A stretch of 64,000 bases of DNA. It comes from a virus (taxonomy: Duplodnaviria; Caudoviricetes). The stretch is from IMG/VR virus record IMGVR_UViG_3300036770_005357; one strand, given 5' to 3'. Under the pieces are notes generated by a model. That model saw only the letters and a program-made list of their open reading frames with translations, was not told where the DNA came from and searched no databases. This document shows, one piece after another, positions 4,222 through 30,400 of the stretch; positions within the stretch are counted from its first letter, which is position 1, and each line of letters starts with the position of its first letter. The position numbers and the translations under genes are program-made.

Positions 4222-5052
4222 ATGACTATTACAACACAAGGCGGCATCTATAAAATTGTCAACAAACTAAATGGAAAATATTATGTTGGTAGGACCAAAA
4301 ACTTTAAGAAGAGATGGTATGATCACAGGAAACGATTGCGGAAAAACTGTCACATAAACTCACATTTACAACGTGCGTGGAACAAAGATGGAGAACATTC
4401 ATTTGAATTTGTAATTACGGAAATTATTGATGTCACAATTTGTCATAAAGAAACCGAACAAAAGTATATAGATCAACTTATTGAAGATCGCAAAAATGGA
4501 ATCGACAATAGTTATAACATTAGTGAAAGTTCAGATGGACCAACATTATTCGGTAACAAAAATGGAATGTTTGGTAGAAAACACAGCAATGAGTCCAAAA
4601 ATTTAATGTCTAACAATAGACGAGGTAAAAAACATACCGAAGAAACTAAAAAAATGTGGAGTGAACGTCGAAAAGGAAAACCTTCGTGGAACAAGGGGAT
4701 GGAAATGTCAGAAGAATATCGTAAAAAATTATCTATTATCAGAAAAGGCAGAAGACATTCTGTAGAGACTAAAAGGAAAATTTCGTTATCTCAACTTAGA
4801 GAAAAAAATCACCGATTTGGCAAGCGACCAACAGAAAATCAAATAAACAAAATGGTTGATGTTATAGTTGATAAAACTATTTACACTTGGAAAAATGACA
4901 AGTTGTTACGTACAGAAAATATGACCCGAAGAGATTTTTATAAAAAATACAACATACCAGCATCCAACATATGTGATCTTATTAAAGGAAAAAGAAAATC
5001 TGTTTATGGATGGTATATTGAAACTAGTTCGCCCAACGGGGTTCTCGTATAA
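4222..5052 (+). mobile_element. Free-standing GIY-YIG homing endonuclease with NUMOD3-like repeats
   Basis: GIYKIVNKLNGKYYVGRT, R..H, F.F..E, YN motifs; MFGRKHSNESK/KKHTEETK/RHSVETK repeats; AT-rich and antisense to neighbours. Confidence 0.92.
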
Positions 5053-10991: not shown

Positions 10992-11264
10992 TCAAACCAG
11001 CATATGGGCTAGTGGATGATAGGATACTTCCTTACGGCTATAAATATTCTTATCATAGTCTGTAGCTTCAATGACGAAAAGACGCTGGGAATACTTAATA
11101 AGACAATAGTTGTACCTAAATAAACTATTCAAATTAAACAACAATTCACCCAACTTAATCTTCACTTCACTATCCTCTACATCACATACACTATGCAAAT
11201 GATCGGTATCATTACGAACACGATCAGTAGATGTAGGATATTTTACAGCCAATATCTTTGTCAT
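10992..11264 (-). CDS. Hypothetical protein
   Basis: 90-aa ORF downstream of the helicase. Confidence 0.5.
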   Translation of the reverse strand: MTKILAVKYPTSTDRVRNDTDHLHSVCDVEDSEVKIKLGELLFNLNSLFRYNYCLIKYSQRLFVIEATDYDKNIYSRKEVSYHPLAHMLV

Positions 11265-11276
11265 ATAATTAATATA

Positions 11277-12650
11277 TTAAATCACCCGAACACTAAATGT
11301 CAAGTCACCATCATTCAACGATTCCAAATTATTAAGCTTGGCTTGAACCCTTCTACAAGCATCTTCCTCAATCGTATTAGCAGCAAATAGTACCTTCTGT
11401 ACACAAGGAGTCTTACCTTCAGCCCTATGAATTCTCCCAAGTGCTTGAAGCATATTGATAGCACTAAAACTAGGACTCAAAATACTATGACGAGGATGAT
11501 TGCCATTCAAGTCATGAAGACTCACACCAGCATTACCCGCTGCCAAATTAGCAATCATAATTCGCTTACGATCCGCTTGAAAATCAGCAATGTCAGCCTG
11601 ACGAGCCTTATCACTCTGTCCACCAACAATACGAGCAACACTCTGACTGTATGTATTGTTTTTACCCAATTGATTAATAATTGCGTCAACAGTATCTGTA
11701 AAATTTACAAATACAACCGGACTGATTCCCTCATCATACAAATCCTTGATCATATCAACCATCGTAGGTACCTTAAGTAACTCAACCTTACGACGAGCCT
11801 TAGTCATAATAGCAAAGTGATGTTCGCTATAATTGGAACTTGACTCTTCAAGTTCAGCCAGTTCTTGTTCCATGATTTCATAGATACGATTGATCTTATC
11901 AGTATTCGTACCCATGTCAAATACATCAGCAATAACCCTATTGTCCGGAAAGATCTTGTCAAACATCTTTCTAGTCATACGGCTAGCCACTTTAAACCGG
12001 TTGAACAGCTTGTCGTGAATATTAGCCATGGCCTCAATCGCTTGACGACTACCAATATCAATTTGATAACCACCAAACCTACCAGTATAAGCACCGCTAT
12101 CAAAGATAAAGCTACGGAAACTCACCAGATTATGAAGCGTCGTAGCAAATCCAAAACTCTTCATCTCCAATGGATTAGTAGCAGCGGTAGCACTCAAAAG
12201 AAGCAGCTTATAGTGGTTCTTCTTGAGAGCAATGAGAAAGTCACTATTCTTGCTATCAAATCCTTTACACTTATGACACTCGTCAATAATGACAAGCGCA
12301 TTCTTGGGAAAGTGGATTTGGTAATCGTCCGGGGTATTGTCTCTACCATTGAGAAAGGAGAGATGTTCAGTATTACCCCGAGTCAATTTCTCAAAGTTTA
12401 TGACGACATGTGCTTTGATACCGAATTCCTTCAGTACATTATGCCAATTGGGAATAACCACTTTGGGACATACAACAACCACAGGGCTATTGAAGTGCTT
12501 GGCGATCCACGCGCCAACATAACTTTTTCCACATCCTGTTTCACTAAGATCTACAGCCGTGCCATTGACATAGAGGCTATCAAGTAGTTTTACTGCATGT
12601 TCCGCTTGAGGACCAATCAGTTTTGAGAAGTCAAATGAAGTAACGCTCAT
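11277..12650 (-). CDS. SF2 (SNF2-like) DNA helicase
   Basis: ETGCGKS Walker A, IIDECH, LSATA, GVSLHD, QALGRIHR motifs. Confidence 0.9.
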   Translation of the reverse strand: MSVTSFDFSKLIGPQAEHAVKLLDSLYVNGTAVDLSETGCGKSYVGAWIAKHFNSPVVVVCPKVVIPNWHNVLKEFGIKAHVVINFEKLTRGNTEHLSFLNGRDNTPDDYQIHFPKNALVIIDECHKCKGFDSKNSDFLIALKKNHYKLLLLSATAATNPLEMKSFGFATTLHNLVSFRSFIFDSGAYTGRFGGYQIDIGSRQAIEAMANIHDKLFNRFKVASRMTRKMFDKIFPDNRVIADVFDMGTNTDKINRIYEIMEQELAELEESSSNYSEHHFAIMTKARRKVELLKVPTMVDMIKDLYDEGISPVVFVNFTDTVDAIINQLGKNNTYSQSVARIVGGQSDKARQADIADFQADRKRIMIANLAAGNAGVSLHDLNGNHPRHSILSPSFSAINMLQALGRIHRAEGKTPCVQKVLFAANTIEEDACRRVQAKLNNLESLNDGDLTFSVRVI

Positions 12651-12768
12651 CGTTTACCTACTGTACCACGGGGTTATAAAAAGTCAAGCCTCCCACGCAA
12701 CTTTTTTCACTTTTCCTCTACTTTTACTCCTCTACTTTTATATATATTAGTAGAGGAAATTATAATAT

Positions 12769-13647
12769 ATGGACAACAATATAAACCAAACTATAATAGA
12801 AAAAGTAGCAATCAAAAGCGTGGCAATATATAAAGCAATAGCTATGTTACCACCACCAGAAATAAAGGACTTATGGGCAGAAAACAATTATACAAAACAG
12901 ACGCAGAACGACTTGAAGCTAGACGCGAAAGACAATTGCGTTACTATGAAAAAAACAAAAACAGAATTAACGCCGGTAGATTGGAAAGATATTACAAATC
13001 AAAACAAGAGCGGGATTTATAAAATAATAAACAAGATTGACGGCAAGTATTATGTAGGTAGAAGTTCCAATATTAAAAAAAGATGGAGATCTCATCGTAA
13101 TCTTTTAAGACAAAACAAACACAGTAATTGTCACCTACAAAGGGCTTGGAATCGTGATGGGGAATCGTCATTTGATTTTATTTTAGTTGAAGAAGTAATA
13201 CCGGATAAAAATATTCTAATAGATGTTGAAACTCGGTACATTAATAAGTTTGTAAATGATAGGAAAAACGGCATTGACGATTGTTACAACTTAAGCTTAA
13301 GTGCGGTTACAGGAAGTGTACCCGGTAATCAACACAGAAAAGGAAAACCTCATTCAATTGAAGATAGATTAAAAATATCTAAGGGACTGTTAGGCAACAC
13401 GAATACTAAAGGTAAATCTATTTCCGAAATACACAGACAAAAAATTATAATGAATGCGCCTAAAGGCAAAAATAATCATGCATTCAATAATAAAATTTAT
13501 AACTTCTTCAACAAAAATACAGGCGAAAGTTTTAGTGGTACACTCAGTGAACTTTTACAAAAAGAAAATATAAAAATAAATTCAGCGTTTCATAGAGTTA
13601 TCCGTGGCGAAAGAAATCATTACAAAGGATGGATATATAAACCCTAG
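12769..13647 (+). mobile_element. GIY-YIG homing endonuclease (probable real start MKKTKTEL near 12946)
   Basis: SGIYKIINKIDGKYYVGRSS; catalytic domain closely resembles the 4222 enzyme. Confidence 0.9.
12873..13025 (+). CDS. Small basic MGRK-type ORF overlapping the GIY-YIG 5' end in another frame
   Basis: Manual translation MGRKQLYKTDAERLEARRERQLRYYEKNKNRINAGRLERYYKSKQERDL*; homolog at 18970. Confidence 0.65.
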
Positions 13648-13653
13648 AATGTC

Positions 13654-13845
13654 TCAATCCTCTGTATCAGCTTTTTCTACAGTGGGAGAGATGATGGGGA
13701 TACGGACAGTGAAGATGATGCGGCTAATTTCGTTGAAGACGATCTTGACAAAAGTGACCGTCAACAAATAAATCAACAATACAAAGGCAATTGCCATACA
13801 GTAATTGCTGATACTAGATGTAATATGTTTAAAAAACTCAGTCAT
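13654..13845 (-). CDS. Small membrane protein
   Basis: Hydrophobic central helix. Confidence 0.5.
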   Translation of the reverse strand: MTEFFKHITSSISNYCMAIAFVLLIYLLTVTFVKIVFNEISRIIFTVRIPIISPTVEKADTED

Positions 13846-13872
13846 ATTAATTATGAATAGTGTTCTTGATTA

Positions 13873-14157
13873 TCAAAACCAGTAATACATTTCTATAGCT
13901 TCAGAACAGCGTGCTTTTGACCACAAAGCAGCAGACTTTTTCGCTATTGATTTGGTATTGTCACTTTCATCATATTCAAAATAATTCCGTTTACCACCGG
14001 GAGAAAATGCAACATATTGCATGTTATCAACATCGTGCCAATACTTTCCTTTAGCAAGTTGTTTTGCTTGTTTTACTTCAACCTTAGTAGCAAATTTACC
14101 ACTATATGGATTATATGGATTTATACAACCCGCTATAAACTTCTGTCGGCTAGTCAT
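13873..14157 (-). CDS. Hypothetical protein
   Basis: 94-aa ORF. Confidence 0.55.
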   Translation of the reverse strand: MTSRQKFIAGCINPYNPYSGKFATKVEVKQAKQLAKGKYWHDVDNMQYVAFSPGGKRNYFEYDESDNTKSIAKKSAALWSKARCSEAIEMYYWF

Positions 14158-14192
14158 ATCTTTTTATAGAATAAGGGGTATCCGCCTAAATG

Positions 14193-14519
14193 TCAAGCAA
14201 CCTTTGCTTCAATCTCAGCCAGTTTCTCAGCGGGAATCAAGCTAATAATTTGACGGGAATACTTAGGAAGCTTACGAAAAGCAATAACAAGTTGTTTAGG
14301 ACTAAGTGTGCGACCCTTGTTAATCTGTTCAGCAAACGAACTTAGTATAAAAGCATCAGTACCGTTGTATCCAACGCCATTGTCGTGTCCCGTGTTTTGA
14401 GCAATCTGCTCGTCAGTCGTCTGCCTCTCCCAGAGCTTCACGATAGCCCTCGTAGCCCAAGTCGGATTGGAGGAGAGCTGCTGCTTCACATATTCAACCA
14501 CTTTCGGATTCAGTTTCAT
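14193..14519 (-). CDS. Conserved phage hypothetical protein
   Basis: EQ...NGVGY...DAFILSSFAEQ...LSPKQ pattern; own promoter. Confidence 0.65.
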   Translation of the reverse strand: MKLNPKVVEYVKQQLSSNPTWATRAIVKLWERQTTDEQIAQNTGHDNGVGYNGTDAFILSSFAEQINKGRTLSPKQLVIAFRKLPKYSRQIISLIPAEKLAEIEAKVA

Positions 14520-14578
14520 CGTGGAAACAGTCTACAGGCTTCTAGGGAGAAGTCAAGCGGTAAAAACAAAAAAACTAA

Positions 14579-14605
14579 CAGAAAATTAATCCGTTAGCTT
14601 TTACA
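14579..14605 (-). terminator. Terminator hairpin, duplicated at about 15120-15146
   Basis: AGCTAACGG-attaatttt-CTGTTAG followed by a T tract on the minus strand. Confidence 0.65.
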
Positions 14606-14624
14606 AAAATATGTTTATAACTTG

Positions 14625-15008
14625 TTATTTACCAAATATTCCAATTTTTCCCATTTGTGATTGAAGAACTGGATTTATTTTCTTCAAAACATCTTTGCCC
14701 GTTGGAATGACTCCACCCCACGACCCTGAATATTTCACTTTTACACGATCATTTCCATCCGGTTCAATTTTTATCATAAAATCTGGGGATTTTTTGGATG
14801 TTATTATGATAGTATTTATGGCAGTATCAATACGCACAAGTAAGTCTCTGTCTATGAGAAGAATGTTACCTTTAAGATCATAAAACAATCTGTCAATTAT
14901 AGATTCAATGTTTGATCCACCAGAAGTACTACGAGTGTCTGATGTATCATCTTCATTTAGGTTTAGAAGACATTCTTTGATTAACATTTTTAGTTGGGTT
15001 CTAGTCAT
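14625..15008 (-). CDS. Late-type protein with MTRTQLKMLIKE tag
   Basis: AT-rich ORF, TATTTATA motif upstream (15031-15038). Confidence 0.65.
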   Translation of the reverse strand: MTRTQLKMLIKECLLNLNEDDTSDTRSTSGGSNIESIIDRLFYDLKGNILLIDRDLLVRIDTAINTIIITSKKSPDFMIKIEPDGNDRVKVKYSGSWGGVIPTGKDVLKKINPVLQSQMGKIGIFGK

Positions 15009-15180
15009 AATTTATATATTGGTTATTTGTTATAAATATACGAAAAAAAAAAATAATAAAAAAATTTACTCGTACAGTTTACTAGCTTTTTTGGGGAAGT
15101 CAAGCGGTAAAAACAAAAAAGCTAACAGAAAATTAATCCGTTAGCTTTGTAATTAATTATAATGATTTAAGTTTAATCCA

Positions 15181-15465
15181 CTACCCGAACAGATCGAAAT
15201 CATCAAAATTATCAACATACCAACTAAAATGACGGGCAAAAGAACGAAAAATGTCAGCCGCTTTGGTTTTTGCTTTTTGAGCTAGATCGGAAAATTGTTG
15301 TTTTTTGACAGGATCGTTTGTTTTCTTACTCAATTCACGATATTCATCTTCCTTTTTTTTCAAAGTAGAATAAGCTAATTTTGCTTTGTTAATCGTGGAT
15401 TTGTCATGATCACTATTTTCAATAATTACTTCTTTGATAAGTTCTTTAAGTTCTTTTTTAGTCAT
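15181..15465 (-). CDS. Late-type protein with MTKKELKELIKE tag
   Basis: TATTTATA motif at 15470-15477. Confidence 0.7.
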   Translation of the reverse strand: MTKKELKELIKEVIIENSDHDKSTINKAKLAYSTLKKKEDEYRELSKKTNDPVKKQQFSDLAQKAKTKAADIFRSFARHFSWYVDNFDDFDLFG

Positions 15466-15520
15466 ATACTATAAATATATGAGAAAAAAATAATTACAGA
15501 TTATAAAACTTTTATAGATA

Positions 15521-15742
15521 TTATTTTGCGTAATGTATTTTATTAGTGCAATTACCTTTATGTATTAATGTCCAGCCACCTATTTTACCGTTATAAGTCT
15601 GAATATACTCACAACCATCTATAACTTTATTTATATTGGTAGGTATCATCATAAATATAATAACAGAAATAATAATAATGCCCAAGTAAATCAAAGTTTC
15701 ATGCGTTATAAATGCTTTGTTTTTCATAGTTGCTTCTTTCAT
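15521..15742 (-). CDS. Small membrane protein, paralog of 40963..41157
   Basis: TM helix then IDGCEYI...LIHKGNCTNKIH, matching IDNCQYI...LTHKGNCTNNIH. Confidence 0.65.
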   Translation of the reverse strand: MKEATMKNKAFITHETLIYLGIIIISVIIFMMIPTNINKVIDGCEYIQTYNGKIGGWTLIHKGNCTNKIHYAK

Positions 15743-15800
15743 CACGAGAACAGTCTACAGTTTTCTAGGGAGAAGTCAAGCCCCCTTTTTTGGGGGAAAT

Positions 15801-15878
15801 TGGTGGGCCTTGAAGGATTTGAACCATCACTCTCAGCAATTATGAGTTGCGTGTTTTAACCAATTAAACTAAAGGCCC
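15801..15878 (-). tRNA. tRNA with CAT anticodon, probably Ile2 (or Met)
   Basis: GGGCCTT/AAGGCCC acceptor, CTCATAA loop, TTCAAAT T loop, ACCA end; own TTGACA-N17-TACAAT promoter. The acceptor resembles Ile2 tRNAs. Confidence 0.85.
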
Positions 15879-16083
15879 GTTATCTAAAAACTATTGTATC
15901 AAACAACTATGCTTTTGTCAAATACTCAAAGTTCGGTATAACAAACACTCACTGTACGACAATCGCCTTTGTAACGCTTGTACGCTTTTTGTTCTGCTTG
16001 ATTATGGTTGGCAGCCTTAATGTAGCCAACTTCTACGCCGTTGTAATAAACAATAAATGTCTTCATATCTTTATCAGTAGTTA

Positions 16084-16281
16084 TCAATAATCATATCCAC
16101 GCTCAATAGCATCAGCACAACTATTGCAAATAGCATACTGAGGCTGTATGTTCACCATACGATCACATCGCTTACACCGCTTAGCAACATTCGTACGCTG
16201 ACACTTATGATAGTAATCAACCATCTCAGGCTCATCCATGTTGCTCCAAGTGCCATAATTGTCGTCACAGTAGGTTCTCAT
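16084..16281 (-). CDS. Small Zn-ribbon protein
   Basis: CKRC...CNSC. Confidence 0.6.
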   Translation of the reverse strand: MRTYCDDNYGTWSNMDEPEMVDYYHKCQRTNVAKRCKRCDRMVNIQPQYAICNSCADAIERGYDY

Positions 16282-16336
16282 TGTTTTAATAGTCTATCAG
16301 CTTTTTTTAATTTGTCAACAGCTTTTTTTAGAGAAA

Positions 16337-16436
16337 GTATCAATTCGGTTGCATCACACCTAATTTATTCTGCAATGCTTTGAGGACAGGCTCTCCATCC
16401 TCATCCGCTAGGCTACGGATTCCACCGAATTGACAC
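16337..16436 (-). ncRNA. Stand-alone cloverleaf-like ncRNA, 100 nt
   Basis: 13-bp closing stem GTGTCAATTCGGT/ACCGAATTGATAC with three hairpins; promoter TTGACA-N16-TATTTT directly upstream; no ORF. Confidence 0.7.
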
Positions 16437-16464
16437 CACCAAAATATCAGACTTTTTTAATCTG

Positions 16465-16695
16465 TCAAGCCTTCGGACACTGTTGAAACTCAAGACTCGG
16501 CGCAATCTTCTCCATCACCCTCATCGCTTCGTCCCGACTGTACACCTGAAAAAACAACTCTCCATCTCCACGATACAACCTCCACACCAAACGCTCACGG
16601 TTGTACATCACATACCCAACAATCACCCCTTGGTTGACCAGCGCATCCACCGGTTTTCCGTCAATCTCAGTCACCGTCCAGTTCATCGTTTTCAT
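16465..16695 (-). CDS. Hypothetical early protein
   Basis: ORF after a promoter copy. Confidence 0.6.
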   Translation of the reverse strand: MKTMNWTVTEIDGKPVDALVNQGVIVGYVMYNRERLVWRLYRGDGELFFQVYSRDEAMRVMEKIAPSLEFQQCPKA

Positions 16696-16729
16696 TACGG
16701 GAAACAGTCTACCAGAAATCTTCAGTCTG

Positions 16730-17005
16730 TCAAGCCCTCACCGTCAACTCGTTCAGCTGTTGAATGGTAGCCCCGCTCATCTCAACCGCCCAATGAACAT
16801 GGTTCATTGCCTCCTTCTTCTTGATTGAATGACCCAGAAACTTAGCACCGTCACCAGTTCCATGATACATTCGCCACCAGTTCTTGCCGTGCTTAGTATC
16901 AACAGGCTTATCAATCATACCCACAGCCTCACCCGCTTGATTGAAAGCGACATGAAGGTTAGGAATCGTGCTCTTGATCTTCTTCCAAGTGATGTAAGTA
17001 ATCAT
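16730..17005 (-). CDS. Hypothetical early protein
   Basis: ORF after a promoter copy. Confidence 0.6.
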   Translation of the reverse strand: MITYITWKKIKSTIPNLHVAFNQAGEAVGMIDKPVDTKHGKNWWRMYHGTGDGAKFLGHSIKKKEAMNHVHWAVEMSGATIQQLNELTVRA

Positions 17006-17415
17006 ATTACGGGATACAGTGTACCAGCTTTTTTTAAGCTGTCAAGCGCTTTTCGGGCTGATAAGTGACGATAGGCGCTGGTTGGATATTCATCGCCGTC
17101 ATCTTGTCAACATAATCACACCACAACAGATAGTTTCGCTGGCCAGACTTCTTGGTTTTGTTCTTCTTCATATTACGGGTAAGAGTGTATCAGGTTTTTT
17201 TCGGTTGTCAAGCCCCTTCAGTCCTCGTCAATCATGGAGTCGTCCACCTCAAAGCTGCCCTCAATGTAGCTGCCATCCTCAGGCAATGGAGCACCCTTAG
17301 CCTCATGTATTGCTTCAGCTACACTGTCAGCCTGCACTTCTACATAACCATACATCTGCCAAACAACAGGTACACGATAGGTTTTCATTGCGGTCATATC
17401 TTTATTTATTTAATT

Positions 17416-17691
17416 TCAGAACCAAAACTCAATACCAATAGTGTCACCCTTGCTATCAAACTGTAATACACCATCCACAACATTACCCACAATATCAAGA
17501 GAAAAACTCAAATCACCCTCCAATACCAACTTGCTATCAGTAATCTCAAAATCCTCAATCTCATATCCATCAGTATCACCATTAAAGTAATACATAACAG
17601 ACGACGGCATATCATTGCCAAATGTATCAACACACTCATTCAAATACTCACGAATCGTCATAGTAACAGTCTCAGTTTTCATTGCATGCAT
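17416..17691 (-). CDS. Acidic hypothetical protein
   Basis: ORF after the promoter at 17716-17743. Confidence 0.6.
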   Translation of the reverse strand: MHAMKTETVTMTIREYLNECVDTFGNDMPSSVMYYFNGDTDGYEIEDFEITDSKLVLEGDLSFSLDIVGNVVDGVLQFDSKGDTIGIEFWF

Positions 17692-17731
17692 ATCTTTATT
17701 TATTTAACGGTTAATAGTCTATCAGCTTTTT

Positions 17732-17965
17732 TTAATCTGTCAAGCCCCCAGTCATCACCTCAATGTCCATCTTCGTCTCACCCTGTAGTGTTTGCCAACG
17801 ATACCCCGACAAATACTCGTTCACCTGCTCCTGCGTCATATCCACAGCCTCCACCCGACGAGATTGATAGGTAGCACCCTCAAAGTAATGAGGACGAATG
17901 TCACGCCCATACCACTTGTCAGCCCTGCCCCGATCCCACGGTCCTCCATGTCGTTCGTTCATCAT
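17732..17965 (-). CDS. Conserved phage hypothetical (HGGPWDRG.AD..YGR)
   Basis: Motif; ATG after a promoter copy. Confidence 0.6.
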   Translation of the reverse strand: MMNERHGGPWDRGRADKWYGRDIRPHYFEGATYQSRRVEAVDMTQEQVNEYLSGYRWQTLQGETKMDIEVMTGGLTD

Positions 17966-18137
17966 GTACACACTCTACACTGCCCACCGAAGAAGTCAAG
18001 CTCCTCCAACCACTTTTTTTAAACTTCTTCCTTTATCGTTAAATTTACCCCACCCCACCCAATACCCTACCGAGACACCATCCAACAAACCAAAGAGGGC
18101 CTGGCGCAATCCTGGCGCTGCCAGGCCCCCGTCAACC

Positions 18138-18443
18138 TCAGACACCAGCCAGACTTTCCAGCTGGGTGTACTCCACACCCTCCTTGGGCGTCCAGTAGAG
18201 ATCCCGCTCGATCTTGAGGCCAAACGGTCCACGAACCGCCTCCAGACCCTCTAGAGACTCAATGCCACCCCATTCCACGCAACCCATACCCAGATCGGCG
18301 TAACCGTAAAGGATGCCATCCTCCATACCAGTGATCAACCAGGTGGCACGACCCCAAGGGGTGAACAGCTTGCAGATCGGATTCGTGTTGTTGTAGCCAG
18401 CCTTGTTGAGCTTGGCAGTCAGTTGTTTCGTCAGTAGCTTCAT
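18138..18443 (-). CDS. DUF2958-like protein
   Basis: KLFTPWGRATWLIT...YGYADLGMGCVEWG...IERDLYW; ATG at 18443 follows a promoter. Confidence 0.7.
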   Translation of the reverse strand: MKLLTKQLTAKLNKAGYNNTNPICKLFTPWGRATWLITGMEDGILYGYADLGMGCVEWGGIESLEGLEAVRGPFGLKIERDLYWTPKEGVEYTQLESLAGV

Positions 18444-18477
18444 CGTGAGACAGACTCTAACAGCTTTTTTTAAAGTG

Positions 18478-18696
18478 TCAAGCCTCCACCAGTTCAACGG
18501 CAGTCAGCTTACCCTGAGCGATTCGGTAGTTCACCGGATCCTCGCTCTCAGCAGCCCGCACATCCTCAACCATCCACCAACGCATCCGAGTCTGCATCGC
18601 ACTCTCAAACGCTTCAACCTCGGTAGCAAACCGAAGACCATTGGTGGCCCACTTACCCTCTACCTTCACTTCCGGCTTCCATGACTTGTTGTTCAT
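18478..18696 (-). CDS. Hypothetical early protein
   Basis: First cassette of the minus-strand block. Confidence 0.6.
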   Translation of the reverse strand: MNNKSWKPEVKVEGKWATNGLRFATEVEAFESAMQTRMRWWMVEDVRAAESEDPVNYRIAQGKLTAVELVEA

Positions 18697-18769
18697 ACGG
18701 GACACACTCTACACTGCCGACCGAGGAAGTCAAGCCCCCCTTGAACTTAAAAAAAGTGCTAGGTAGCGC

Positions 18770-18866
18770 TTGACTTCGGCACTGGCCCTGGTAGAGTGTA
18801 TCCAGATCGGCTGACCAAGCCAGGGTAGGGGACCAAGGGCTACCCGAATAGCGTTAACCTTAACGC
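18770..18866 (+). repeat. Copy B of the promoter plus two-hairpin element
   Basis: TTGACT-N16-TAGAGT then ccagatcggctgaccaagccagggtaggggaccaagggctaccc...cgttaa. Confidence 0.75.
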
Positions 18867-18901
18867 ACTTTTTTAACTTTTCTTCGTCGTTTTATTCCAC
18901 G

Positions 18902-19783
18902 ATGAACTATTTATTAATTGACAAAGATATACTTATGATCAACAATGAAATATTAGAGGAGTACTTTATATGGGACGAAAGAAGCTTAACAGAACACCAG
19001 ATGAATTGCGAGAACAGCGTAAACTCAGAGATAAACGATACTACGAACAACACAAAGATAAACTCAACGCAAATAGATTGGAGAGATATTACCGATCCAA
19101 AGTTAAGAAAGAAACTACGAAAGAAAGCTTGGCGGAAAGCTAATGAAGAAAAATTAAAAAAACAAAATAAAGCTTACTACGAAGCTAATAAAGATAAGAA
19201 CCGAGAATATCGTAAAGATTATAATAAAGCTTATAAAAAGGCTAATAAAGAAAAACAAAAAGCTTATAGTAAAGCTTATCGTGATGCTAACAGAGATAAA
19301 AGAAAAACATATCTTGAAGCTAATAAAGATAAACGAAACAAACATCGTAGAAATCGTAAAAAAACCGATATACAATATAAACTATCTAACAACTTGCGAT
19401 CCAGATTAAGAGATGCTATTAGATGTAATTACAAATCAGGCAGTGCAGTAAAAGATTTGGGTTGTAGTATTGAAGAACTTAAAGTTTATTTAGAAAGTAA
19501 GTTTCTACCGGGAATGACTTGGGACAATTATGGATTGTACGGATGGCATATAGATCACATAAAACCATTAGCTAGTTTTGATTTAAGTGATCGTAACCAA
19601 CTATTAGAAGCTTGTCACTACACAAACCTCCAACCGCTTTGGGCCAACGACAACCTATCCAAAGGCGATAAATTTATAAAAAATCCGCTTCAACCGCTTG
19701 ACTTCGGCACTAGTTCTGGTAAAGTAGTCCCAACAGCTGACAAAGCGAGGGTAGGGTACCAGGGGCTGCGTTTATTCCGTTAA
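18902..19783 (+). mobile_element. HNH homing endonuclease with basic helical repeats
   Basis: KAY(Y/R)EANK(D/E)K repeats; MTWDNYG..GWHIDHIKPLASF...HYTNLQPLWANDNLSKG. Confidence 0.9.
18970..19143 (+). CDS. Small basic MGRK-type ORF overlapping the HNH 5' end
   Basis: MGRKKLNRTPDELREQRKLRDKRYYEQHKDKLNANRLERYYRSKVKKETTKESLAES*. Confidence 0.65.
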   Translation: MGRKKLNRTPDELREQRKLRDKRYYEQHKDKLNANRLERYYRSKVKKETTKESLAES

Positions 19784-19790
19784 CGATAAA
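19698..19790 (+). repeat. Copy C (diverged) of the promoter plus two-hairpin element
   Basis: cgcTTGACTtcggcact shared with copy B, N16-TAAAGT, gctgacaaagc, gggtagggtacca, cgttaa. Confidence 0.7.
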
Positions 19791-20640
19791 GTATAAAAAG
19801 CGCACATGCTCTGGGCTTTAACGATAAAGTCCCAGTTAACGATAAAGCTAAAATTGATAAGTGAACCTAATGACCCCGCGTTCATTAGACAGTCTCATCA
19901 CTCAGTAGGTCGTCTACTGACCCGACCACATTAGGCGCTCTAATGGGTTTTTGCGCTGTCAGCACATAAGAACGACTTATCATAACTTACGAAAATTAGG
20001 ATACCTTATTGAAAAATAAATGTACTTGACAAAGAGAGTGAGATGTGTATACATTTGCGCGGGAAACACAAAAAAAGAAAATCAAGCACACATATGCACA
20101 TATATTATAACCGCCATAAAAAAAAGCGATTTGTGCTCGCCAAGCGTGGTTTATAATGCTCTATGCTTATACTTTATTTAATATTTGCATAACTACACTG
20201 TGATTTATTATAAAAGTATGTACATATACACATATGTTTATTGTTATCAAATGATAGTAGATATAATAAAATTGACATATTTATAATGGTGATATAGTAT
20301 GAGAACTATGATTAATTTTATAAAGGAAGTGGTTGTGAATGTGTTTATGATGTTTATGGTCATATACTTTGTGTTAGCGATGATAGTGTTTTTGAGTGTG
20401 ATGAGTATTGTATTTTTTGCAGCGATGATAGTAGAAACTACACTAGATACATTGAGTCACATGGTAAAGGGTAGTAATATTACAATAAGGAGGGGCTTAT
20501 AAGGCAAAAAGTGATGTACCTGTTTTTAAGCAAAAAAAGCGCTGGGGGGAGGTTAATGAACGAAAAAAGCGCGGGGGGGAGGTTACAAATGGCCTATGTG
20601 GGTGGGGGGTGCTTAGTTATAGGGACTATGGTATGGGGGG
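19778..20640. other. Candidate replication origin / large non-coding switch region
   Basis: TTAACGATAAAG x3, several hairpins, G-tract repeats, gene-orientation and skew switch. Confidence 0.45.
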
Positions 20641-20648
20641 TTTAAGAT

Positions 20649-21080
20649 ATGGTTATAAAAGATATATTGAAACAATATCCGATAATTAATCGTGAGTGGA
20701 TATATGTGGATCGTCGTGGTTTGGCGTATAGTATGGCTGAGCATTTTAATGATTATGTTATATTAAATGGTAACGATGTAGATTTGTCTATGACGCGGGA
20801 TATATATGTTAAGGAGTGTATCAGGGCGTATGGAAGTATATGGGGACATTTTGTAAGGAGGGTAGATGGTAACATAGGCAATTTGGCTATAAAGAATGTG
20901 GATATGTGGAATAGGGCGTTTCCTAGGTATAGAAGTAGCAGTGGAATTTATTTGGATCCATATAAGTCTAATATGGTTAGTAGTGATGCTGGTATATTAT
21001 GTGTACATCATACTACTGTAATGGGTAATAGTGTATATTGTTTAGATTTGTATGATTATAGGGGTAGTGTGTATGTATAG
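20649..21080 (+). CDS. Hypothetical protein, paralog family with 24383 and 32248
   Basis: KQYPI.N..W ... VYCLD motifs. Confidence 0.65.
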   Translation: MVIKDILKQYPIINREWIYVDRRGLAYSMAEHFNDYVILNGNDVDLSMTRDIYVKECIRAYGSIWGHFVRRVDGNIGNLAIKNVDMWNRAFPRYRSSSGIYLDPYKSNMVSSDAGILCVHHTTVMGNSVYCLDLYDYRGSVYV

Positions 21081-21324
21081 TTGTTATTTATTAAGATGTG
21101 TTGACGGCAGTTATTATTGTGGTATAAGCAACGATGTTGAGGCACGTATTTTGGTACATAACAGTGGTAGGGGTAGTAAATATGTTAGAAGCAGGTTACC
21201 GGCGGTATTGGTGTATGTTGAGGAGTGTGGTAGCAAGAGTGAAGCGATGAAGCGGGAGAGACAGATAAAGAGTATGAGTAGGCAGCAGAAGATACAATTG
21301 ATAGATAGTTATAATAGTATATGA
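21052..21324 (+). CDS. UPF0213/YhbQ-type GIY-YIG nuclease
   Basis: YLLRCVDGSYYCGISNDVEARILVHNSGRGSKYVRSRLP...REROIK-type tail (REROIK read as RERQIK). Confidence 0.9.
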   Translation: MIIGVVCMYSCYLLRCVDGSYYCGISNDVEARILVHNSGRGSKYVRSRLPAVLVYVEECGSKSEAMKRERQIKSMSRQQKIQLIDSYNSI

Positions 21325-21887
21325 TTAAATTAAGTGAATTATTGCAATCTCCGTATAGAGATGCTGTATCTATATTTGAATCTCCGTTTCAATTAAACAG
21401 GCCGTATAATCCGCAAAATTTAGAATCTATTGGAAGAAATAAAGTATTTACGGATAATATAATAGAAAAGGCGAAGAAGATTGGTAGATTTGAAGATTAT
21501 CAGTTATATGAATATGTTGTGGGTGATGATATATTCAATATATTGGAGCAGAGTGGATATACCTATGGATTTTTTCAATATAGAGTAATAAATAATATTG
21601 TTAATGAAGTGGGTATATGGCAATCGCCTATTAGTTTGGGGTTAATTAGAAGATTTATATTTGATTATATACTTAAAGTGTATGATGGATTATTATCTGA
21701 TGATGCACATACCGAGTTAGGACAAAAATATTGGGATAAAGTATTAAATCGAGCATTGAGTTTGGGTTATGGTGTATATGTTATTGAAAATGATAAAAAG
21801 ATATCTTTATCATCAAATATTGATATTAGTAAATTTTACAGCAAATCTTCGGTAGGTATGAATTATAAGTTTTTGATACAGAAATGA
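21321..21887 (+). CDS. MIKL-tagged protein, paralog of 42321 (possible GNAT-like fold)
   Basis: IWQSPISLGLIR..IF.Y...DGLLSDDAH..LG..YW.K. Confidence 0.6.
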   Translation: MIKLSELLQSPYRDAVSIFESPFQLNRPYNPQNLESIGRNKVFTDNIIEKAKKIGRFEDYQLYEYVVGDDIFNILEQSGYTYGFFQYRVINNIVNEVGIWQSPISLGLIRRFIFDYILKVYDGLLSDDAHTELGQKYWDKVLNRALSLGYGVYVIENDKKISLSSNIDISKFYSKSSVGMNYKFLIQK

Positions 21888-24838: not shown

Positions 24839-24854
24839 GTTATATTTATAAAAT

Positions 24855-25928
24855 ATGATTAAATTCAAAGACATATTGTGTGAAGTGTCTGAACAAGAAG
24901 TGAGTAAGATACAATCTTTTATTGACAGCAATCAATTTTTGAAGGGTAAGATTGTAAATATAAATGATTTGATTGACGGCGACAAATTTGTATTGTATGT
25001 AAGTGATGACGCTTTATCTCATATAAAAGAAAGACATAAGGATGAAACCAAACCGGGATCCATATTTGATGTTGGTATTAATTTAAGAGCTGTATTGAGT
25101 AAGTTAATAAATTTACCTCCATCTGAACAATCAGGTGGTAGAGTTAAGTGGTTAGGCGTAAATGTTGGCTCTCCAATTGGTAAGATGGGTGTAAAGTTAG
25201 GCAGCCCAGAACAAGTTGCTAGTATGACTGACTATCAAATGCCTGACGGTAAAAAGGAGATGGTAAAAGTAGCTGTAGGTGAAAGAAATCCAACAAGTGA
25301 AATTAGTTTAATTACCGGAGAACTCGGTGAATTAGAAAATGGCAAGAAGGTATTATCATTAATATCAGCATTTCCGGGTGGAATGAGTGTTGATGGTGTA
25401 GAGTTGCCGATGGATAGAGGACAATTTGCTAGTAAAGGACTATATTTTATGATTACTAAAACAAATACTTTAAACGAAACATTTAATAAACATTTAGGTT
25501 ATCTCAAAAAGAAATTAATAACCGAGAACATTACAGACGATTGGTTTAGTGAAGGTGCTTTTAGTACTTACAAGAAACCTGCTGTAGAACAATATGAGAT
25601 TGCTGCACAAGATGGTGTATTAAAGACATTGGAGGGTGAACAATCATATAAGAAAGGATATTATATATTGACCGGTCCAAAAGGTGAGAAGTATAGTATG
25701 CCTCCTGAAAAGTTTAATGAGTTGAAAGATGATTTGGGTGATGGCAAGTGTAGTCCCAAGAAGATAATGAAAGTTGCTAAGTTAGCCGATCATGATGGTA
25801 GTGTACAAACCAGTTGGGGAGCTAAGTTAGATTATACAGCTGGCAATGATTATATAGTTAAGCATGGACCGGGTGATTATGGAGTGGTAAAGAAGGATAT
25901 TTTTGATACCACTTATGTTAAATCATAA
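24855..25928 (+). CDS. Two-domain tagged protein with C-terminal PGDYG domain
   Basis: MIKFKDILCE start; C-terminal HGPGDYGVVKKDIFDTTY. Confidence 0.65.
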   Translation: MIKFKDILCEVSEQEVSKIQSFIDSNQFLKGKIVNINDLIDGDKFVLYVSDDALSHIKERHKDETKPGSIFDVGINLRAVLSKLINLPPSEQSGGRVKWLGVNVGSPIGKMGVKLGSPEQVASMTDYQMPDGKKEMVKVAVGERNPTSEISLITGELGELENGKKVLSLISAFPGGMSVDGVELPMDRGQFASKGLYFMITKTNTLNETFNKHLGYLKKKLITENITDDWFSEGAFSTYKKPAVEQYEIAAQDGVLKTLEGEQSYKKGYYILTGPKGEKYSMPPEKFNELKDDLGDGKCSPKKIMKVAKLADHDGSVQTSWGAKLDYTAGNDYIVKHGPGDYGVVKKDIFDTTYVKS

Positions 25929-27583: not shown

Positions 27584-27603
27584 TTTGGTTATATTTATAG
27601 TAT

Positions 27604-28167
27604 ATGATCAAGTTGAAAGATTTATTGAATGAAGTATTTAGTTTACCTGACATTGTATATCATGGCAGTGGATTAGATTTTGATAAGTTTGATAAAAACA
27701 AAAGTAATTTTAGAGGTACTATATATTTTACCACCAACAAAGATTTTGCTAAATCATTTGCTACAGACAGAGGCACAGGTAAAACAATAATATATCATTG
27801 TAAGTTGAATATTGATAAGATGTTTGATCCGGAAGATATTAATTCTTTAAATGCATTAAAACCTATCATACGAGATCTAATTGAGAAAAAGTATAAAGAT
27901 ACAGTAACAAATGCTTCTTTTATTATTCCAAGTGGACCGATTTATATTGACGGCAATGAAATTACAAATCCATCATTGGATGACGCTGTTAATTGGTATC
28001 TGTGGAGAATCAAGAATGGCGCTTGGCGAATACTTGAAGGAGAAAACATATTGAACTTCATAAAACAATCTGGTTACGATGCTGTTTTGACAAAAGAACG
28101 TGGATCTCAAAATATAGCGGTATTTGATCCTGATAAAGTTACGATAGTTAAGAAAGAATACATCTAG
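27604..28167 (+). CDS. ADP-ribosyltransferase-like (ART-PolyVal type) tagged protein
   Basis: VYHGS..DFDKFD....RGTIYFTTNKDFAKSFA ... GYDAV ... AVFDPDKV. Confidence 0.6.
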   Translation: MIKLKDLLNEVFSLPDIVYHGSGLDFDKFDKNKSNFRGTIYFTTNKDFAKSFATDRGTGKTIIYHCKLNIDKMFDPEDINSLNALKPIIRDLIEKKYKDTVTNASFIIPSGPIYIDGNEITNPSLDDAVNWYLWRIKNGAWRILEGENILNFIKQSGYDAVLTKERGSQNIAVFDPDKVTIVKKEYI

Positions 28168-28187
28168 TTTTTTATATTTATATTAAC

Positions 28188-29846
28188 ATGATTAGTTTAC
28201 ATACAATTTTAAGTGAAAATGTAGATCAAAATATTGATCGTATAAAAGCCGCTTACAAATTCTTTATACAACATTTAGGATTGCCAGCTGGTAGAATCAA
28301 ATTAAAGCTGGGTCCACTAAGTGTTGATCCAGATTCTGGATTACCAACACAAGCAAGTGTATTTGTAAGCAAAGATAAACCGGCTAAATACATTATAACA
28401 GTTAATAGCAAAAGCGCTGTAAGTGTATCTGATTTGATAAGACATTTAGCACATGAGATGCAACATATACTTCAAACTGAATCTGGTAGATTTGATGTAT
28501 ATACACACACTTGGGATGGAAAGACTTATGAAGTAACTAAAGGCACTGAAGAATATTATAATTTACCGTGGGAAAGAGATGCTCGTAAAGCAGCATTTGA
28601 ATTGGAATTGGCATTTACCAGATATATGCGTGATAAAGGTGCAAGTAAGAGTTATAAGAAATTAAATGAGAATCCGGATACAATTGTTTATAAAGGTCAA
28701 TATTATGTATATAGCACTCCACACAACAAGGCTAGTTTCTTAATTTATAAGGATGATAAAACTAAAAAAGAAACGCTATTTGGTTTTAGTGTTAATAAAA
28801 AAGATTTCTTTAGTTCCGATCCAGATGTTATAAAAGAAATAGAAGAACTTACAAAGGGTACAGATTATTCACAATATTATACACGACAAAAAATTGAAGA
28901 TTTCAAAAGTGCTTCAAATGGCAAGGGTCATTATGATTTAGAAAAATTATTGATGGAACTCAGAAGATATGATAATGGCGGTCTTTCAAGAGGTAGAATA
29001 TTTGAATTACCCGATGATATTACTGTATGTACATTTTGGGAACCAAAAAATGTTGTCTTGAAGTATTTGAAATTTTACGAAGAAGCCATTAAATCAAGTG
29101 GTTATGATCCTAAAAAGATATTATACGAACCATATGATGTTAAGAATTTCATAACATATGAAGAGTTTATTAGTAATACATCTCCTGATCCTACATATGT
29201 AACTTTAAACGACGGTAGCTTAGCTAAGGTTGGTGAAAAGGTTGTTATAATTTATCTTTCACACGATCCGAATGATTTAAATAATCCAGATGGTGAAATT
29301 GTAAAAATAATAAATGGCAATAGAGTTAAAGTAAAAATTCTCAACTCTAGAGCTCCACAATATTTCAAAGTTGGAGATGAAACGGAGGAAGCCGGTAATT
29401 ATCTTCTTCCATATGATCAAAAAACAAGATATCCAGATGCAGGTGGTGAAGATATAAGTTCGGTAATTGATACAAAGACAAAAGAATTTGTAGATAAACG
29501 AGCAAAATTACACACAACAGGTGCAGCACTTACAACCGCTGAAAAAGAAGCACTTGAAGTGGAAGTAGATAGTTTAGAAACAGAAATCAAATTGTTAAGA
29601 GACATAATGGCTTCCGGTGAAAAATATTATACGGATAATGTGAAAGATGTAGTGAGTAAATCTGTTGCGCGTAAATTACATGCTAAGAAAAAAGAAAAAC
29701 AAGATCAATACAGTTTGATTGCACAAGCTGAAAAACAATTTGGTATGCCTATTGCACAAATAAGACAAAAGTATAGAGGTGTACCGTTGGATCAATTGAT
29801 CAAGAAAGAATCGTTATATAGAAAGATAATGAACCAAATTCTATAA
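28188..29846 (+). CDS. Multidomain tagged protein with N-terminal zincin-like metallopeptidase
   Basis: LAHEMQHILQ (HExxH) ... PWERDA. Confidence 0.6.
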   Translation: MISLHTILSENVDQNIDRIKAAYKFFIQHLGLPAGRIKLKLGPLSVDPDSGLPTQASVFVSKDKPAKYIITVNSKSAVSVSDLIRHLAHEMQHILQTESGRFDVYTHTWDGKTYEVTKGTEEYYNLPWERDARKAAFELELAFTRYMRDKGASKSYKKLNENPDTIVYKGQYYVYSTPHNKASFLIYKDDKTKKETLFGFSVNKKDFFSSDPDVIKEIEELTKGTDYSQYYTRQKIEDFKSASNGKGHYDLEKLLMELRRYDNGGLSRGRIFELPDDITVCTFWEPKNVVLKYLKFYEEAIKSSGYDPKKILYEPYDVKNFITYEEFISNTSPDPTYVTLNDGSLAKVGEKVVIIYLSHDPNDLNNPDGEIVKIINGNRVKVKILNSRAPQYFKVGDETEEAGNYLLPYDQKTRYPDAGGEDISSVIDTKTKEFVDKRAKLHTTGAALTTAEKEALEVEVDSLETEIKLLRDIMASGEKYYTDNVKDVVSKSVARKLHAKKKEKQDQYSLIAQAEKQFGMPIAQIRQKYRGVPLDQLIKKESLYRKIMNQIL

Positions 29847-30386: not shown

Positions 30387-30400
30387 TATATTTATAAGAT

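What the first reader, a model, noticed from the sequence alone, without database searches (positions are those of the whole stretch)
12873..19143. Same small basic ORF overlaps two unrelated homing endonucleases in the same relative frame
Homologous MGRK...R.YYE..K..(I/L)NA.RLERYY peptides start at 12873 (GIY-YIG) and 18970 (HNH). In both cases the nuclease frame is +1 relative to the peptide, and RLERYY overlaps (V/I)DW(K/R)DIT. A shared module on two nuclease families suggests a portable expression or DNA-binding unit: either a +1 frameshift fusion (an A7 run lies near 12948) or a separate inhibitor or regulator.
Basis: partly seen in the sequence, partly recalled or inferred. Interest (0 to 1): 0.66.

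Follow-up and report, generated by a model that had tools for sequence, protein, structure and literature searches.

The report
Small basic gene nested in homing endonucleases
A conserved gene for a ~45-residue basic helical protein lies inside the 5' end of many unrelated phage homing endonuclease genes, read in another frame, and it probably binds repeats in its own promoter rather than being joined to the nuclease by a ribosomal frameshift.

Summary
The two peptides (12873-13022, 18970-19143) are homologous (25/44 identical, with synonymous changes in their own frame). Each overlaps a nuclease read in the +1 frame.

Across 131 unique related loci from viral and metagenome contigs, 125 keep a long +1 ORF. 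The bodies include GIY-YIG, HNH-type, Vsr/DUF559 zinc-finger and other types.

A frameshift fusion is not supported. Every nuclease frame has its own ATG: 110 upstream of the peptide's ATG, 19 internal. Where the ATG is upstream, +1-frame stops inside the leader are avoided (5 loci against 31 expected). No slippery site is conserved. The +2 frame always carries stops, which explains the constant +1 relation.

The peptide is therefore an independently translated nested gene. AlphaFold2 models a basic arm plus one long helix. A stand-alone homologue and rare in-frame fusions exist.

The cassettes carry two direct heptamer repeats beside a phage promoter-like TATATTTATA (39/59 cassette promoters, 1/100 others). 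The heptamer differs between cassettes and tracks peptide residues 16-18 and 21-22, which lie on one helix face.

My inference is a private DNA-binding autoregulator. An earlier first-reader note from this scan records the same leader in another genome.

The parts
12715..12726 (+). Cassette A, repeat copy 1 (CCTCTACTTTTA)
   Evidence: Exact 12-mer present twice with a 14-nt period and nowhere else in the window. Equivalent repeats occur in 39/59 cassette promoters and 1/100 other promoters.
12729..12740 (+). Cassette A, repeat copy 2, abutting the -10-like element
12739..12749 (+). Cassette A, -10-like AT-rich element (TATATATATTA). Its role as a promoter is inferred.
   Evidence: The related motif TATATTTATA occurs 11 times against 1.36 expected, 4-6 nt before many start codons.
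12745..12756 (-). Cassette A, inverted third copy of the repeat (2 mismatches). Its GTAGAGG overlaps the SD-like GAGGAAA before ATG1.
12769..13647 (+). Nuclease ORF A (GIY-YIG + NUMOD3-like, 292 aa), starting at ATG1. Codons 1-76 are a poorly conserved N-terminal extension read through the leader in the +1 frame.
   Evidence: Open-frame selection.
12873..13022 (+). Leader ORF A (49 aa). The conserved part is residues 1-44 (12873-13004). The tail is set by the nuclease coding sequence.
18883..18895 (+). Cassette B, repeat copy 1 (TTCGTCG + TTTTAT)
   Evidence: Same heptamer class as L004.
18896..18904 (+). Cassette B, degenerate repeat copy 2
   Evidence: Imperfect in this copy.
18908..18916 (+). 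Cassette B, -10-like TATTTATTA (inferred promoter)
18935..19783 (+). Nuclease ORF B (HNH-like) from the first ATG after the -10-like element. The frame is open from 18902. Helical YY..NK.K repeats are followed by the DH..N..N nuclease motif at about 19540-19700.
18957..18962 (+). GAGGAG Shine-Dalgarno-like sequence, 7 nt before the leader ATG. This is unusual: only 12/100 relatives have one.
18970..19143 (+). Leader ORF B (57 aa). The conserved part is residues 1-44 (18970-19101).

Best explanation
Each of the two endonuclease genes carries the same portable 5' module. The module has three parts:
1. A phage promoter-like element preceded by two direct copies of a cassette-specific heptamer.
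2. A first ATG that opens the nuclease frame.
3. A second ATG, a few to about 35 codons downstream, that opens a nested ORF in the -1 frame relative to the nuclease. Seen from the peptide, the nuclease is in +1.

Shown here: the nested ORF encodes a conserved, very basic protein whose functional part is about 44 residues. It is under purifying selection in its own frame. The nuclease is made from its own ATG by reading through the same DNA in +1. That stretch needs only to stay free of stops. No frameshift is needed.

Inferred: the small protein has an extended GR(K/P)K arm and one long helix. It binds the two heptamer + AT-tract units that sit between the -35 position and the -10-like element of its own promoter, and so limits transcription of itself and of the nuclease. 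This would be a private repressor-operator pair. Nesting the regulator inside the nuclease gene keeps the two together when cassettes recombine onto new nuclease bodies.
For: Architecture:
- The +1 ORF is present in 125/131 unique loci, across GIY-YIG, HNH, Vsr/DUF559 and other bodies.
- Within 75 nt upstream of the leader ATG there are 93 ATGs in +1, 39 in +2 and 19 in frame 0.
- 110 loci have an open upstream +1 ATG. The other 19 all have an internal +1 ATG after the last +1 stop.
- With an upstream ATG, 5 loci have a +1 stop in the leader, against 31.4 expected (minimum 20 in 2000 resamples). Without one, 7 loci against 7.1 expected.
- Three-base periodicity shows frame-0 coding in the leader and nuclease-frame coding from about 3 codons before GIY.
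- A stand-alone homologue exists (L082). Several loci keep an intact leader beside a truncated nuclease frame (L025, L051, L138).

Protein: AlphaFold2 gives pLDDT 94, residues 1-9 extended and a helix at 10-56.

Operator link:
- A repeat of at least 6/7 matches, with a 14-16 nt period, lies next to the -10-like element in 39/59 cassette promoters and 1/100 others.
- Heptamer class explains 0.77-0.83 of the entropy at residues 16, 17 and 21, and 0.62 at residue 18, against 0.3-0.5 at most other positions.
- These residues cluster on one helix face (shuffle p about 0.02).
- The partial correlation of operator similarity with these residues, given the rest of the leader, is 0.40, reached by 0/2000 permutations. 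At 70-90% identity in the rest of the leader, operators share 7.4/10 nt when these residues match and 4.95/10 when they differ.
- The class pairings recur in 63 further leaders, although these are relatives of the same classes and not phylogenetically independent.
- The same leader-operator class sits on different nuclease folds.

Precedent: I-TevI represses its own late promoter through an overlapping operator (PMC2988022).
Against: - No binding, transcription or translation data exist.
- The promoter role of TATATTTATA is inferred only from its enrichment and position.
- Leader and repeats are adjacent and co-inherited, so the covariation may be partly phylogenetic. The rest of the leader also correlates with the operator (partial r 0.33).
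- One heptamer (TTGACG) occurs with three different residue sets.
- A WB-like subgroup, and WB itself, have degenerate second copies.
- A 15-bp period puts two sites on nearly opposite DNA faces.
- Most leader ATGs lack a Shine-Dalgarno sequence (12/100), so how the internal start is chosen is unknown.
- The AT-hook likeness is only a lead (score 0.88).
Confidence: 0.5

Rival explanations
1. Programmed +1 ribosomal frameshift. Ribosomes start at the leader ATG, shift +1 shortly after RY(Y/W), and make a leader-nuclease fusion. The unshifted peptide would be a by-product or a regulator, as with IS1/IS3 transposases.
For: - The +1 relation is constant in 125/131 loci.
- Rare natural in-frame fusions show the leader can be an N-terminal domain. 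L064 is 351 aa. L050/L052 have one base fewer in an A-run. P0052 and P0054 are further examples.
- The leader weakly resembles the helical repeats of the HNH-type body (tblastn E 1.6e-4; hhalign probability only 22%).
Against: - Every nuclease frame has its own ATG.
- Stop avoidance in +1 occurs only when that ATG is upstream. A frameshift does not predict this.
- The permitted window (codons 38-45) holds no conserved slippery heptamer, rare codon or fixed stop. The leader stop wanders between codons 45 and 60.
- Some bodies keep a canonical start at the junction, for example MKISGIY in L055, L080 and L088.
Confidence: 0.07
2. The nested ORF acts only in cis as a translational device. Its translation, or ribosome traffic from two close ATGs in different frames, sets how much nuclease is made. 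The peptide itself has no function.
For: The two ATGs lie 5-74 nt apart on what looks like a nearly leaderless mRNA. Most lack a Shine-Dalgarno sequence, so the starts could compete. Homing endonucleases are often held down at the translational level (PMC2988022).
Against: - Forty-four residues are conserved in sequence, with synonymous change.
- The helix model is confident.
- A stand-alone homologue has no overlapping gene.
- In-frame domain versions exist.
- Class-specific residues lie on one helix face.
Confidence: 0.12
3. The small protein works with or on the nuclease rather than on the promoter. It could be a detachable DNA-targeting subunit, or an inhibitor that docks on the acidic N-terminal extension encoded by the same DNA in +1.
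For: - In-frame fusions place the leader on the nuclease.
- Each AGA/CGA arginine codon of the leader reads as Asp or Glu in +1. The extension is therefore acidic wherever the leader is basic (direct reading).
Against: - The same leader class serves unrelated nuclease folds.
- Some loci have no extension at all, because the nuclease starts at the junction (L010, L020, L055, L088).
- The variable leader residues track the promoter repeats, not the nuclease type.
- The extension is poorly conserved (13/43 identities).
Confidence: 0.18
4. The heptamer repeats and the leader are linked only by common descent. The repeats would then serve another purpose, such as a binding site for the nuclease itself, a promoter variant or a recombination hotspot.
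For: The repeats and the leader lie within about 100 nt and are inherited together. The rest of the leader also correlates with operator similarity. One heptamer occurs with several residue sets.
Against: - Both repeat copies change together between cassettes, for example CTAACG to CTAATG in both copies along with Q21 to L.
- The repeats are absent from 99/100 other promoters of the same type, and from the two leaderless nuclease genes found.
- Operators differ as much as random pairs when residues 16-22 differ, even in otherwise 70-90% identical leaders.
- Cassettes with the same operator carry different nuclease bodies.
Confidence: 0.25

Closest known systems
I-TevI transcriptional autorepression in phage T4 (reviewed in PMC2988022)
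   Same: A phage homing endonuclease gene driven by a phage late-type promoter, with an operator overlapping that promoter that limits its own expression.
   Different: In T4 the endonuclease's own DNA-binding domain is the repressor, and the operator resembles the homing site. Here the proposed binder is a separate small protein encoded in another frame inside the nuclease gene. The sites are direct repeats private to each cassette, and they travel with the leader rather than with the nuclease body. Binding is untested.
IS1/IS3-type transposase expression by programmed frameshift (from general knowledge of these elements)
   Same: A mobile-element nuclease gene whose 5' part encodes a small basic DNA-binding protein in one frame, with the catalytic part in another frame.
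   Different: Those elements need a -1 slip on a conserved A-rich heptamer to make the enzyme. Here the enzyme frame has its own ATG, is kept open through the overlap, and no slip site is conserved.
Overprinted (nested) genes of small phages and viruses, such as phiX174 genes B and E (from general knowledge)
   Same: Two proteins are read from one DNA stretch in different frames. One frame is strongly constrained, and the other is mainly kept free of stops.
   Different: This module is portable. It is found on at least four unrelated nuclease types and in several copies per genome, and the nested gene appears paired with a cis element upstream.
AT-hook and basic-region helix DNA binders (AT-hook, bZIP basic region)
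   Same: An N-terminal G-R-(K/P)-K arm followed by a long basic helix. Each heptamer is followed by an AT tract.
   Different: There is no Pfam match. The strict GRP core is present only in distant relatives. There is no leucine zipper pattern. The sites are direct repeats, not palindromes.

Membership tests
GIY-YIG homing endonuclease (body A) | GIY-YIG catalytic domain above the curated thresholds | tested here: met
   Pfam PF01541 47.5 bits (gathering score 22.6). TIGR01453 82 bits (cut-off 56). phrog_314 E 1.9e-30.
GIY-YIG homing endonuclease (body A) | Embedded in a group I intron | tested here: not met
   No intron family in 11000-21500 at E up to 0.1. The gene is free-standing.
HNH (beta-beta-alpha-Me) endonuclease (body B) | HNH domain above the curated threshold | tested here: inconclusive
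   Pfam HNH 15.7 bits, below the gathering score of 21.4. phrog_1035 (endonuclease VII) E 3e-7. No PDB sequence match. The AlphaFold2 model of the nuclease part has low confidence.
HNH (beta-beta-alpha-Me) endonuclease (body B) | Conserved D-H ... N ... N catalytic and metal-binding motif | tested here: met
   D154, H155, N178 are invariant and N187 nearly invariant in 11 homologues.
Programmed +1 ribosomal frameshift gene | The downstream frame has no start of its own and depends on the upstream ORF | tested here: not met
   All 129 out-of-frame loci have an ATG in the nuclease frame with no stop before the junction.
Programmed +1 ribosomal frameshift gene | A conserved shift site with a slow or stop codon, or another stimulator | tested here: not met
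   The codon 38-45 window shows no shared motif across classes. The leader stop varies between codons 45 and 60.
Programmed +1 ribosomal frameshift gene | A constant frame relation among homologues | tested here: met
   125/131 loci are in +1. This is explained by unavoidable stops in +2 (55/55 loci).
Overlapping (overprinted) gene pair | Purifying selection on the nested frame | tested here: met
   Synonymous changes and third-position variability in frame 0. 124 cluster representatives.
Overlapping (overprinted) gene pair | Selection to keep the second frame open across the overlap | tested here: met
   5 loci with a +1 stop against 31.4 expected, only where an upstream ATG exists.
Autoregulated endonuclease cassette (I-TevI-like) | An operator overlapping the cassette's own promoter | tested here: met
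   Direct repeats lie 2-4 nt upstream of the -10-like element in 39/59 cassettes and 1/100 controls. The promoter itself is inferred.
Autoregulated endonuclease cassette (I-TevI-like) | The product binds the operator and lowers transcription | not testable with these tools
   Only covariation evidence is available.
AT-hook | An R-G-R-P core in a basic context | tested here: not met
   The window peptides have M-G-R-K-K, and there is no Pfam hit. G-R-P-K occurs only in distant relatives. The atlas hit (0.88, 14% of members) is a lead only.

The most novel reading that the evidence does not exclude
Each cassette carries a private repressor-operator pair with a simple readable code. Residues 17, 18, 21 and 22 on one face of a single basic helix would specify the heptamer repeated in the cassette's own promoter. 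This would let several homing endonuclease cassettes coexist in one phage genome, each regulating only itself, while the module hops between unrelated nuclease bodies.
Probability: 0.35. Interest if true: 0.8.

Novelty: new variant of a known kind. Interest (0 to 1): 0.64.

Why it matters
Homing endonucleases must be kept at low dose, and how free-standing ones are controlled is largely unknown outside T4.

This work describes an unannotated small-protein family. A profile search found 124 cluster representatives, and 98 relatives were found in viral contigs and 266 in metagenome contigs. It forms a portable 5' module on at least four nuclease types in uncultivated phages, many of the contigs apparently from freshwater metagenomes.

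It is a clean natural case of overprinting. One frame carries a conserved protein, and the other only has to stay open.

It also corrects a tempting misreading: a constant +1 frame relation here does not mean frameshifting.

If the covariation with the promoter repeats reflects binding, the family would give a very small, specificity-variable DNA-binding helix with matched sites. That is directly testable with synthetic peptides.

Genome annotation would gain too. Gene callers currently report the leader as a 44-60 aa ORF, and the true nuclease start is probably often misplaced.

Tried and rejected
- **Frameshift site.** I looked for a slippery site or stop-codon stimulator between the last +1 stop (codon 37.3 in L055) and the earliest leader stop (codon 45 in L068). 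Nothing was shared. The A7 run was rejected because of its position and lack of conservation.
- **Longer relatives.** The word-index search for longer proteins found none. The exhaustive profile search did find a few.
- **Cultured relatives.** The phage collection gave no match for the region by blastn, none for the peptide by tblastn, and only a weak helicase hit. No own genome is held.
- **Known families.** Pfam, NCBIfam and PHROGs do not name the leader. The only hit is phrog_17714 at E 0.005, of unknown function.
- **Homology between the leader and the HNH-body repeats.** The evidence is weak (hhalign probability 22%), so I do not rely on it.
- **Fold confirmation of the HNH domain.** The model confidence in that part was too low to search with. 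PDB sequence searches were empty.
- **Group I intron context.** None was found.
- **Further seeding of viral contigs.** Two attempts failed. P0039 gave the stand-alone form.
- **Other copies of the A or B operator in the window.** None was found.
- **Literature.** No description of this arrangement turned up.


Full report
**The observation**

ORF listing and direct reading confirm two small ORFs. One is at 12873-13022 (49 aa) and one at 18970-19143 (57 aa).

- They align without gaps over 44 residues, with 25 identities and E 1e-14.
- The nucleotide similarity begins exactly at the ATG and fades after RLERYY(K/R)SK.
- Ten of the identical residues use different codons.
- Reading the same DNA in +1 gives only 13/43 identities.

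The peptide frame is therefore the one under selection.

Both nuclease frames are +1 relative to the peptide. Body A is a GIY-YIG enzyme with a NUMOD3-like stretch. Body B is HNH-like. The evidence for B is:
- phrog_1035;
- a sub-threshold Pfam HNH hit;
- an invariant D-H ... N motif, with a further nearly invariant Asn, across homologues.

There is no group I intron nearby. Both genes lie on the opposite strand to their neighbours.

**How general it is**

A profile of the two peptides found 124 cluster representatives among 1.84 billion proteins. Most are 44-60 aa ORFs that start MGRKKLNRT.

DNA was fetched for 80 viral-contig loci and 80 metagenome loci. That gives 131 unique leaders:
- 125 have the leader ORF stopping at codon 45-60 and a +1 ORF of at least 140 aa, or one running off the contig;
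- 2 have the leader in frame with a long protein;
- 4 have a short +1 frame.

The downstream bodies include:
- GIY-YIG with NUMOD3 (27 of 64 scanned);
- HNH and HNH_3;
- Vsr/DUF559 with a CPxC zinc finger;
- a treble-clef/CapR/DUF723 protein;
- several unnamed types.

The finding passes that test clearly.

**Why this is not a frameshift**

Four results argue against it.

1. ATGs within 75 nt upstream of the leader ATG are strongly biased to the nuclease frame: 93 in +1, 39 in +2 and 19 in frame 0. In 110 of the 129 out-of-frame loci, such an ATG opens a frame that runs uninterrupted into the nuclease. The other 19 all have an ATG in +1 after the last +1 stop.
2. I resampled synonymous codons while keeping each leader's protein sequence.
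   - Loci with an upstream +1 ATG should carry a +1 stop inside the leader in about 31 of 55 cases. Only 5 do, and no resample of 2000 fell below 20.
   - Loci without an upstream ATG show 7 against 7.1 expected.
   - The nuclease frame is thus kept open exactly when it is being read from upstream.
3. The window in which a shift would have to occur runs from after codon 37 to before codon 45. It holds no shared slippery or pausing motif, and the leader stop wanders.
4. Some bodies still have a canonical start at the junction, for example M-K-I-S-G-I-Y.

The constant +1 relation has a simple cause. The leader's conserved residues force stops in +2 in every locus (55/55). A body read through the leader can therefore only be in +1 or in frame.

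Rare in-frame versions exist. L064 and L065 are in frame. L050/L052 have one base fewer in an A-run. P0052 and P0054 are further cases. In L064 the upstream ATGs are accordingly in frame 0.

**What the leader is**

- Three-base periodicity shows ordinary coding constraint in frame 0 through the leader. It switches to the nuclease frame about three codons before the GIY motif.
- Residues after about 44 are not conserved. They are dictated by the nuclease coding sequence.
- The protein is very basic. By direct count, B has 19 K/R and 10 D/E.
- AlphaFold2 with 46 homologues gives pLDDT 94, an extended stretch at residues 1-9 and a single helix at 10-56.
- No curated family covers it.
- A stand-alone copy sits between RNase H-like and DnaB-like genes in another phage type.
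- A few loci keep an intact leader beside a truncated nuclease frame.

Together these findings point to an independently functional small protein.

**The upstream module**

Nearly every cassette has the same layout:
- a heptamer, then an AT tract (TTTTAT);
- the same heptamer again, about 15 nt downstream of the first copy;
- then, 2-4 nt further on, a TATATTTATA-like element;
- then the first ATG, often only 2-6 nt later.

In the window, TATATTTATA occurs 11 times against 1.36 expected. It stands 4-6 nt before the start codons of several other genes. I therefore read it as a phage promoter that gives nearly leaderless mRNAs. This is an inference.

The repeats are specific to leader-bearing cassettes: 39/59 against 1/100 promoters of the same type. 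They are missing from the two leaderless nuclease genes found, including the window's third GIY-YIG gene at 4222.

In cassette A the unit is an exact 12-mer present twice (12715-12726 and 12729-12740). A third, inverted copy lies just past the -10-like element. There are no other copies in the window. In cassette B the second copy is degenerate.

**Covariation**

The heptamer differs between cassettes, even within one phage genome, but both copies change together. When loci are grouped by heptamer alone, some leader positions are highly variable overall yet almost fixed within groups. Heptamer class explains the following fraction of the entropy:
- residue 21: 0.83;
- residue 17: 0.79;
- residue 16: 0.77;
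- residue 18: 0.62;
- most other positions: 0.3-0.5.

The associated positions fall on one face of the helix (shuffle p about 0.02).

Across 79 loci with good repeats, operator similarity correlates with identity at residues 16-18 and 21-22 after allowing for the rest of the leader. The partial r is 0.40, reached by 0 of 2000 permutations. Among pairs otherwise 70-90% identical, operators share 7.4 of 10 bases when these residues match and 4.95 when they differ. The latter value is close to the level between distantly related leaders, about 4.4-4.6.

The pairings recur in the 63 new metagenome leaders, and new pairs appear there. These new leaders are relatives of the same classes, so this is not a phylogenetically independent test.

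Operator classes are not tied to nuclease type. L034 carries A's promoter and leader joined to an HNH-type body, with the breakpoint right after RLERYY.

**Interpretation**

The architecture is well supported: a nested gene that is independently translated, and no frameshift. I put this at about 0.85.

The function is inferred. I favour a small DNA-binding protein that occupies the two repeats between the -35 position and the -10-like element, and so represses its own cassette. This is analogous to I-TevI autorepression (PMC2988022), but carried out by a separate overprinted gene.

Caveats:
- Leader and repeats are co-inherited.
- The code is not strict.
- Some cassettes, including B, have degenerate repeats.
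- Most leader ATGs lack a Shine-Dalgarno sequence.
- Nothing here measures binding or expression.

**Earlier notes of this scan**

A first-reader note on another genome reports the same MGRK leader on a Vsr/DUF559-like and an HNH endonuclease. This agrees with the families found here. Another note describes nearly leaderless promoters with fixed spacing from the -10 element to the start codon, in a different genome. That matches the promoter layout seen here.

Noticed in passing
window 24841-24857, 27590-27606, 28173-28190, 30387-30403, 42305-42323, 15465-15479 (-): TATATTTATA stands 4-6 nt before the ATG of several genes whose products begin alike (MIKFKD.., MIKLKD.., MISLHT.., MKLIEI.., MIKLTD.., MTKKEL..). 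This suggests a paralogous gene set with nearly leaderless starts. The motif occurs 11 times against 1.36 expected.
   Followed up: partly
window 4222-5052 (+): A third GIY-YIG endonuclease gene has the same promoter-like TACTTATAT-cat-ATG but no MGRK leader, and only a poor upstream repeat (3/7).
   Followed up: partly
window 19680-19783 (+): The HNH-like ORF B has a C-terminal tail of about 35 residues that 10 homologues lack. It seems to read on into downstream non-coding DNA, as an earlier first-reader note also suggested.
   Followed up: no
window 18700-18870 and about 17950-18030: A GC-rich non-coding block lies just upstream of cassette B. Spurious ORF translations at 17898-18254 and 18641-18766 share a '..SQAP..' stretch, which hints at a repeated element. 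No Rfam family matched in 11000-21500.
   Followed up: no
L082:1501-1680: A stand-alone leader-like gene (59 aa) lies between an RNase H/flap-nuclease-like gene and a DnaB-like helicase gene in a different phage type. No nuclease overlaps it.
   Followed up: partly
L034:2840-3370 compared with window 12700-13020: The promoter, repeats and first 41 leader codons are nearly identical to cassette A, but they are followed by an HNH-type body (truncated). This is a recombination breakpoint exactly at the leader/body junction.
   Followed up: partly
P0091; P0044, P0075, P0084, P0101, P0103, P0107, P0108, P0114, P0124: P0091 is a GIY-YIG domain with a leader-like module fused at its C-terminus. Nine longer proteins that look eukaryotic (fungal-like) begin with the same MGR(K/P)..Y.T.E....R....YY..K motif and have no Pfam domain.
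   Followed up: no
window 19094-19430 (+): The N-terminal half of the HNH-like body consists of about seven confident helices of 10-19 residues, built from YY..NK.K-like repeats (AlphaFold2 pLDDT above 90). No curated family covers this helical repeat region.
   Followed up: partly
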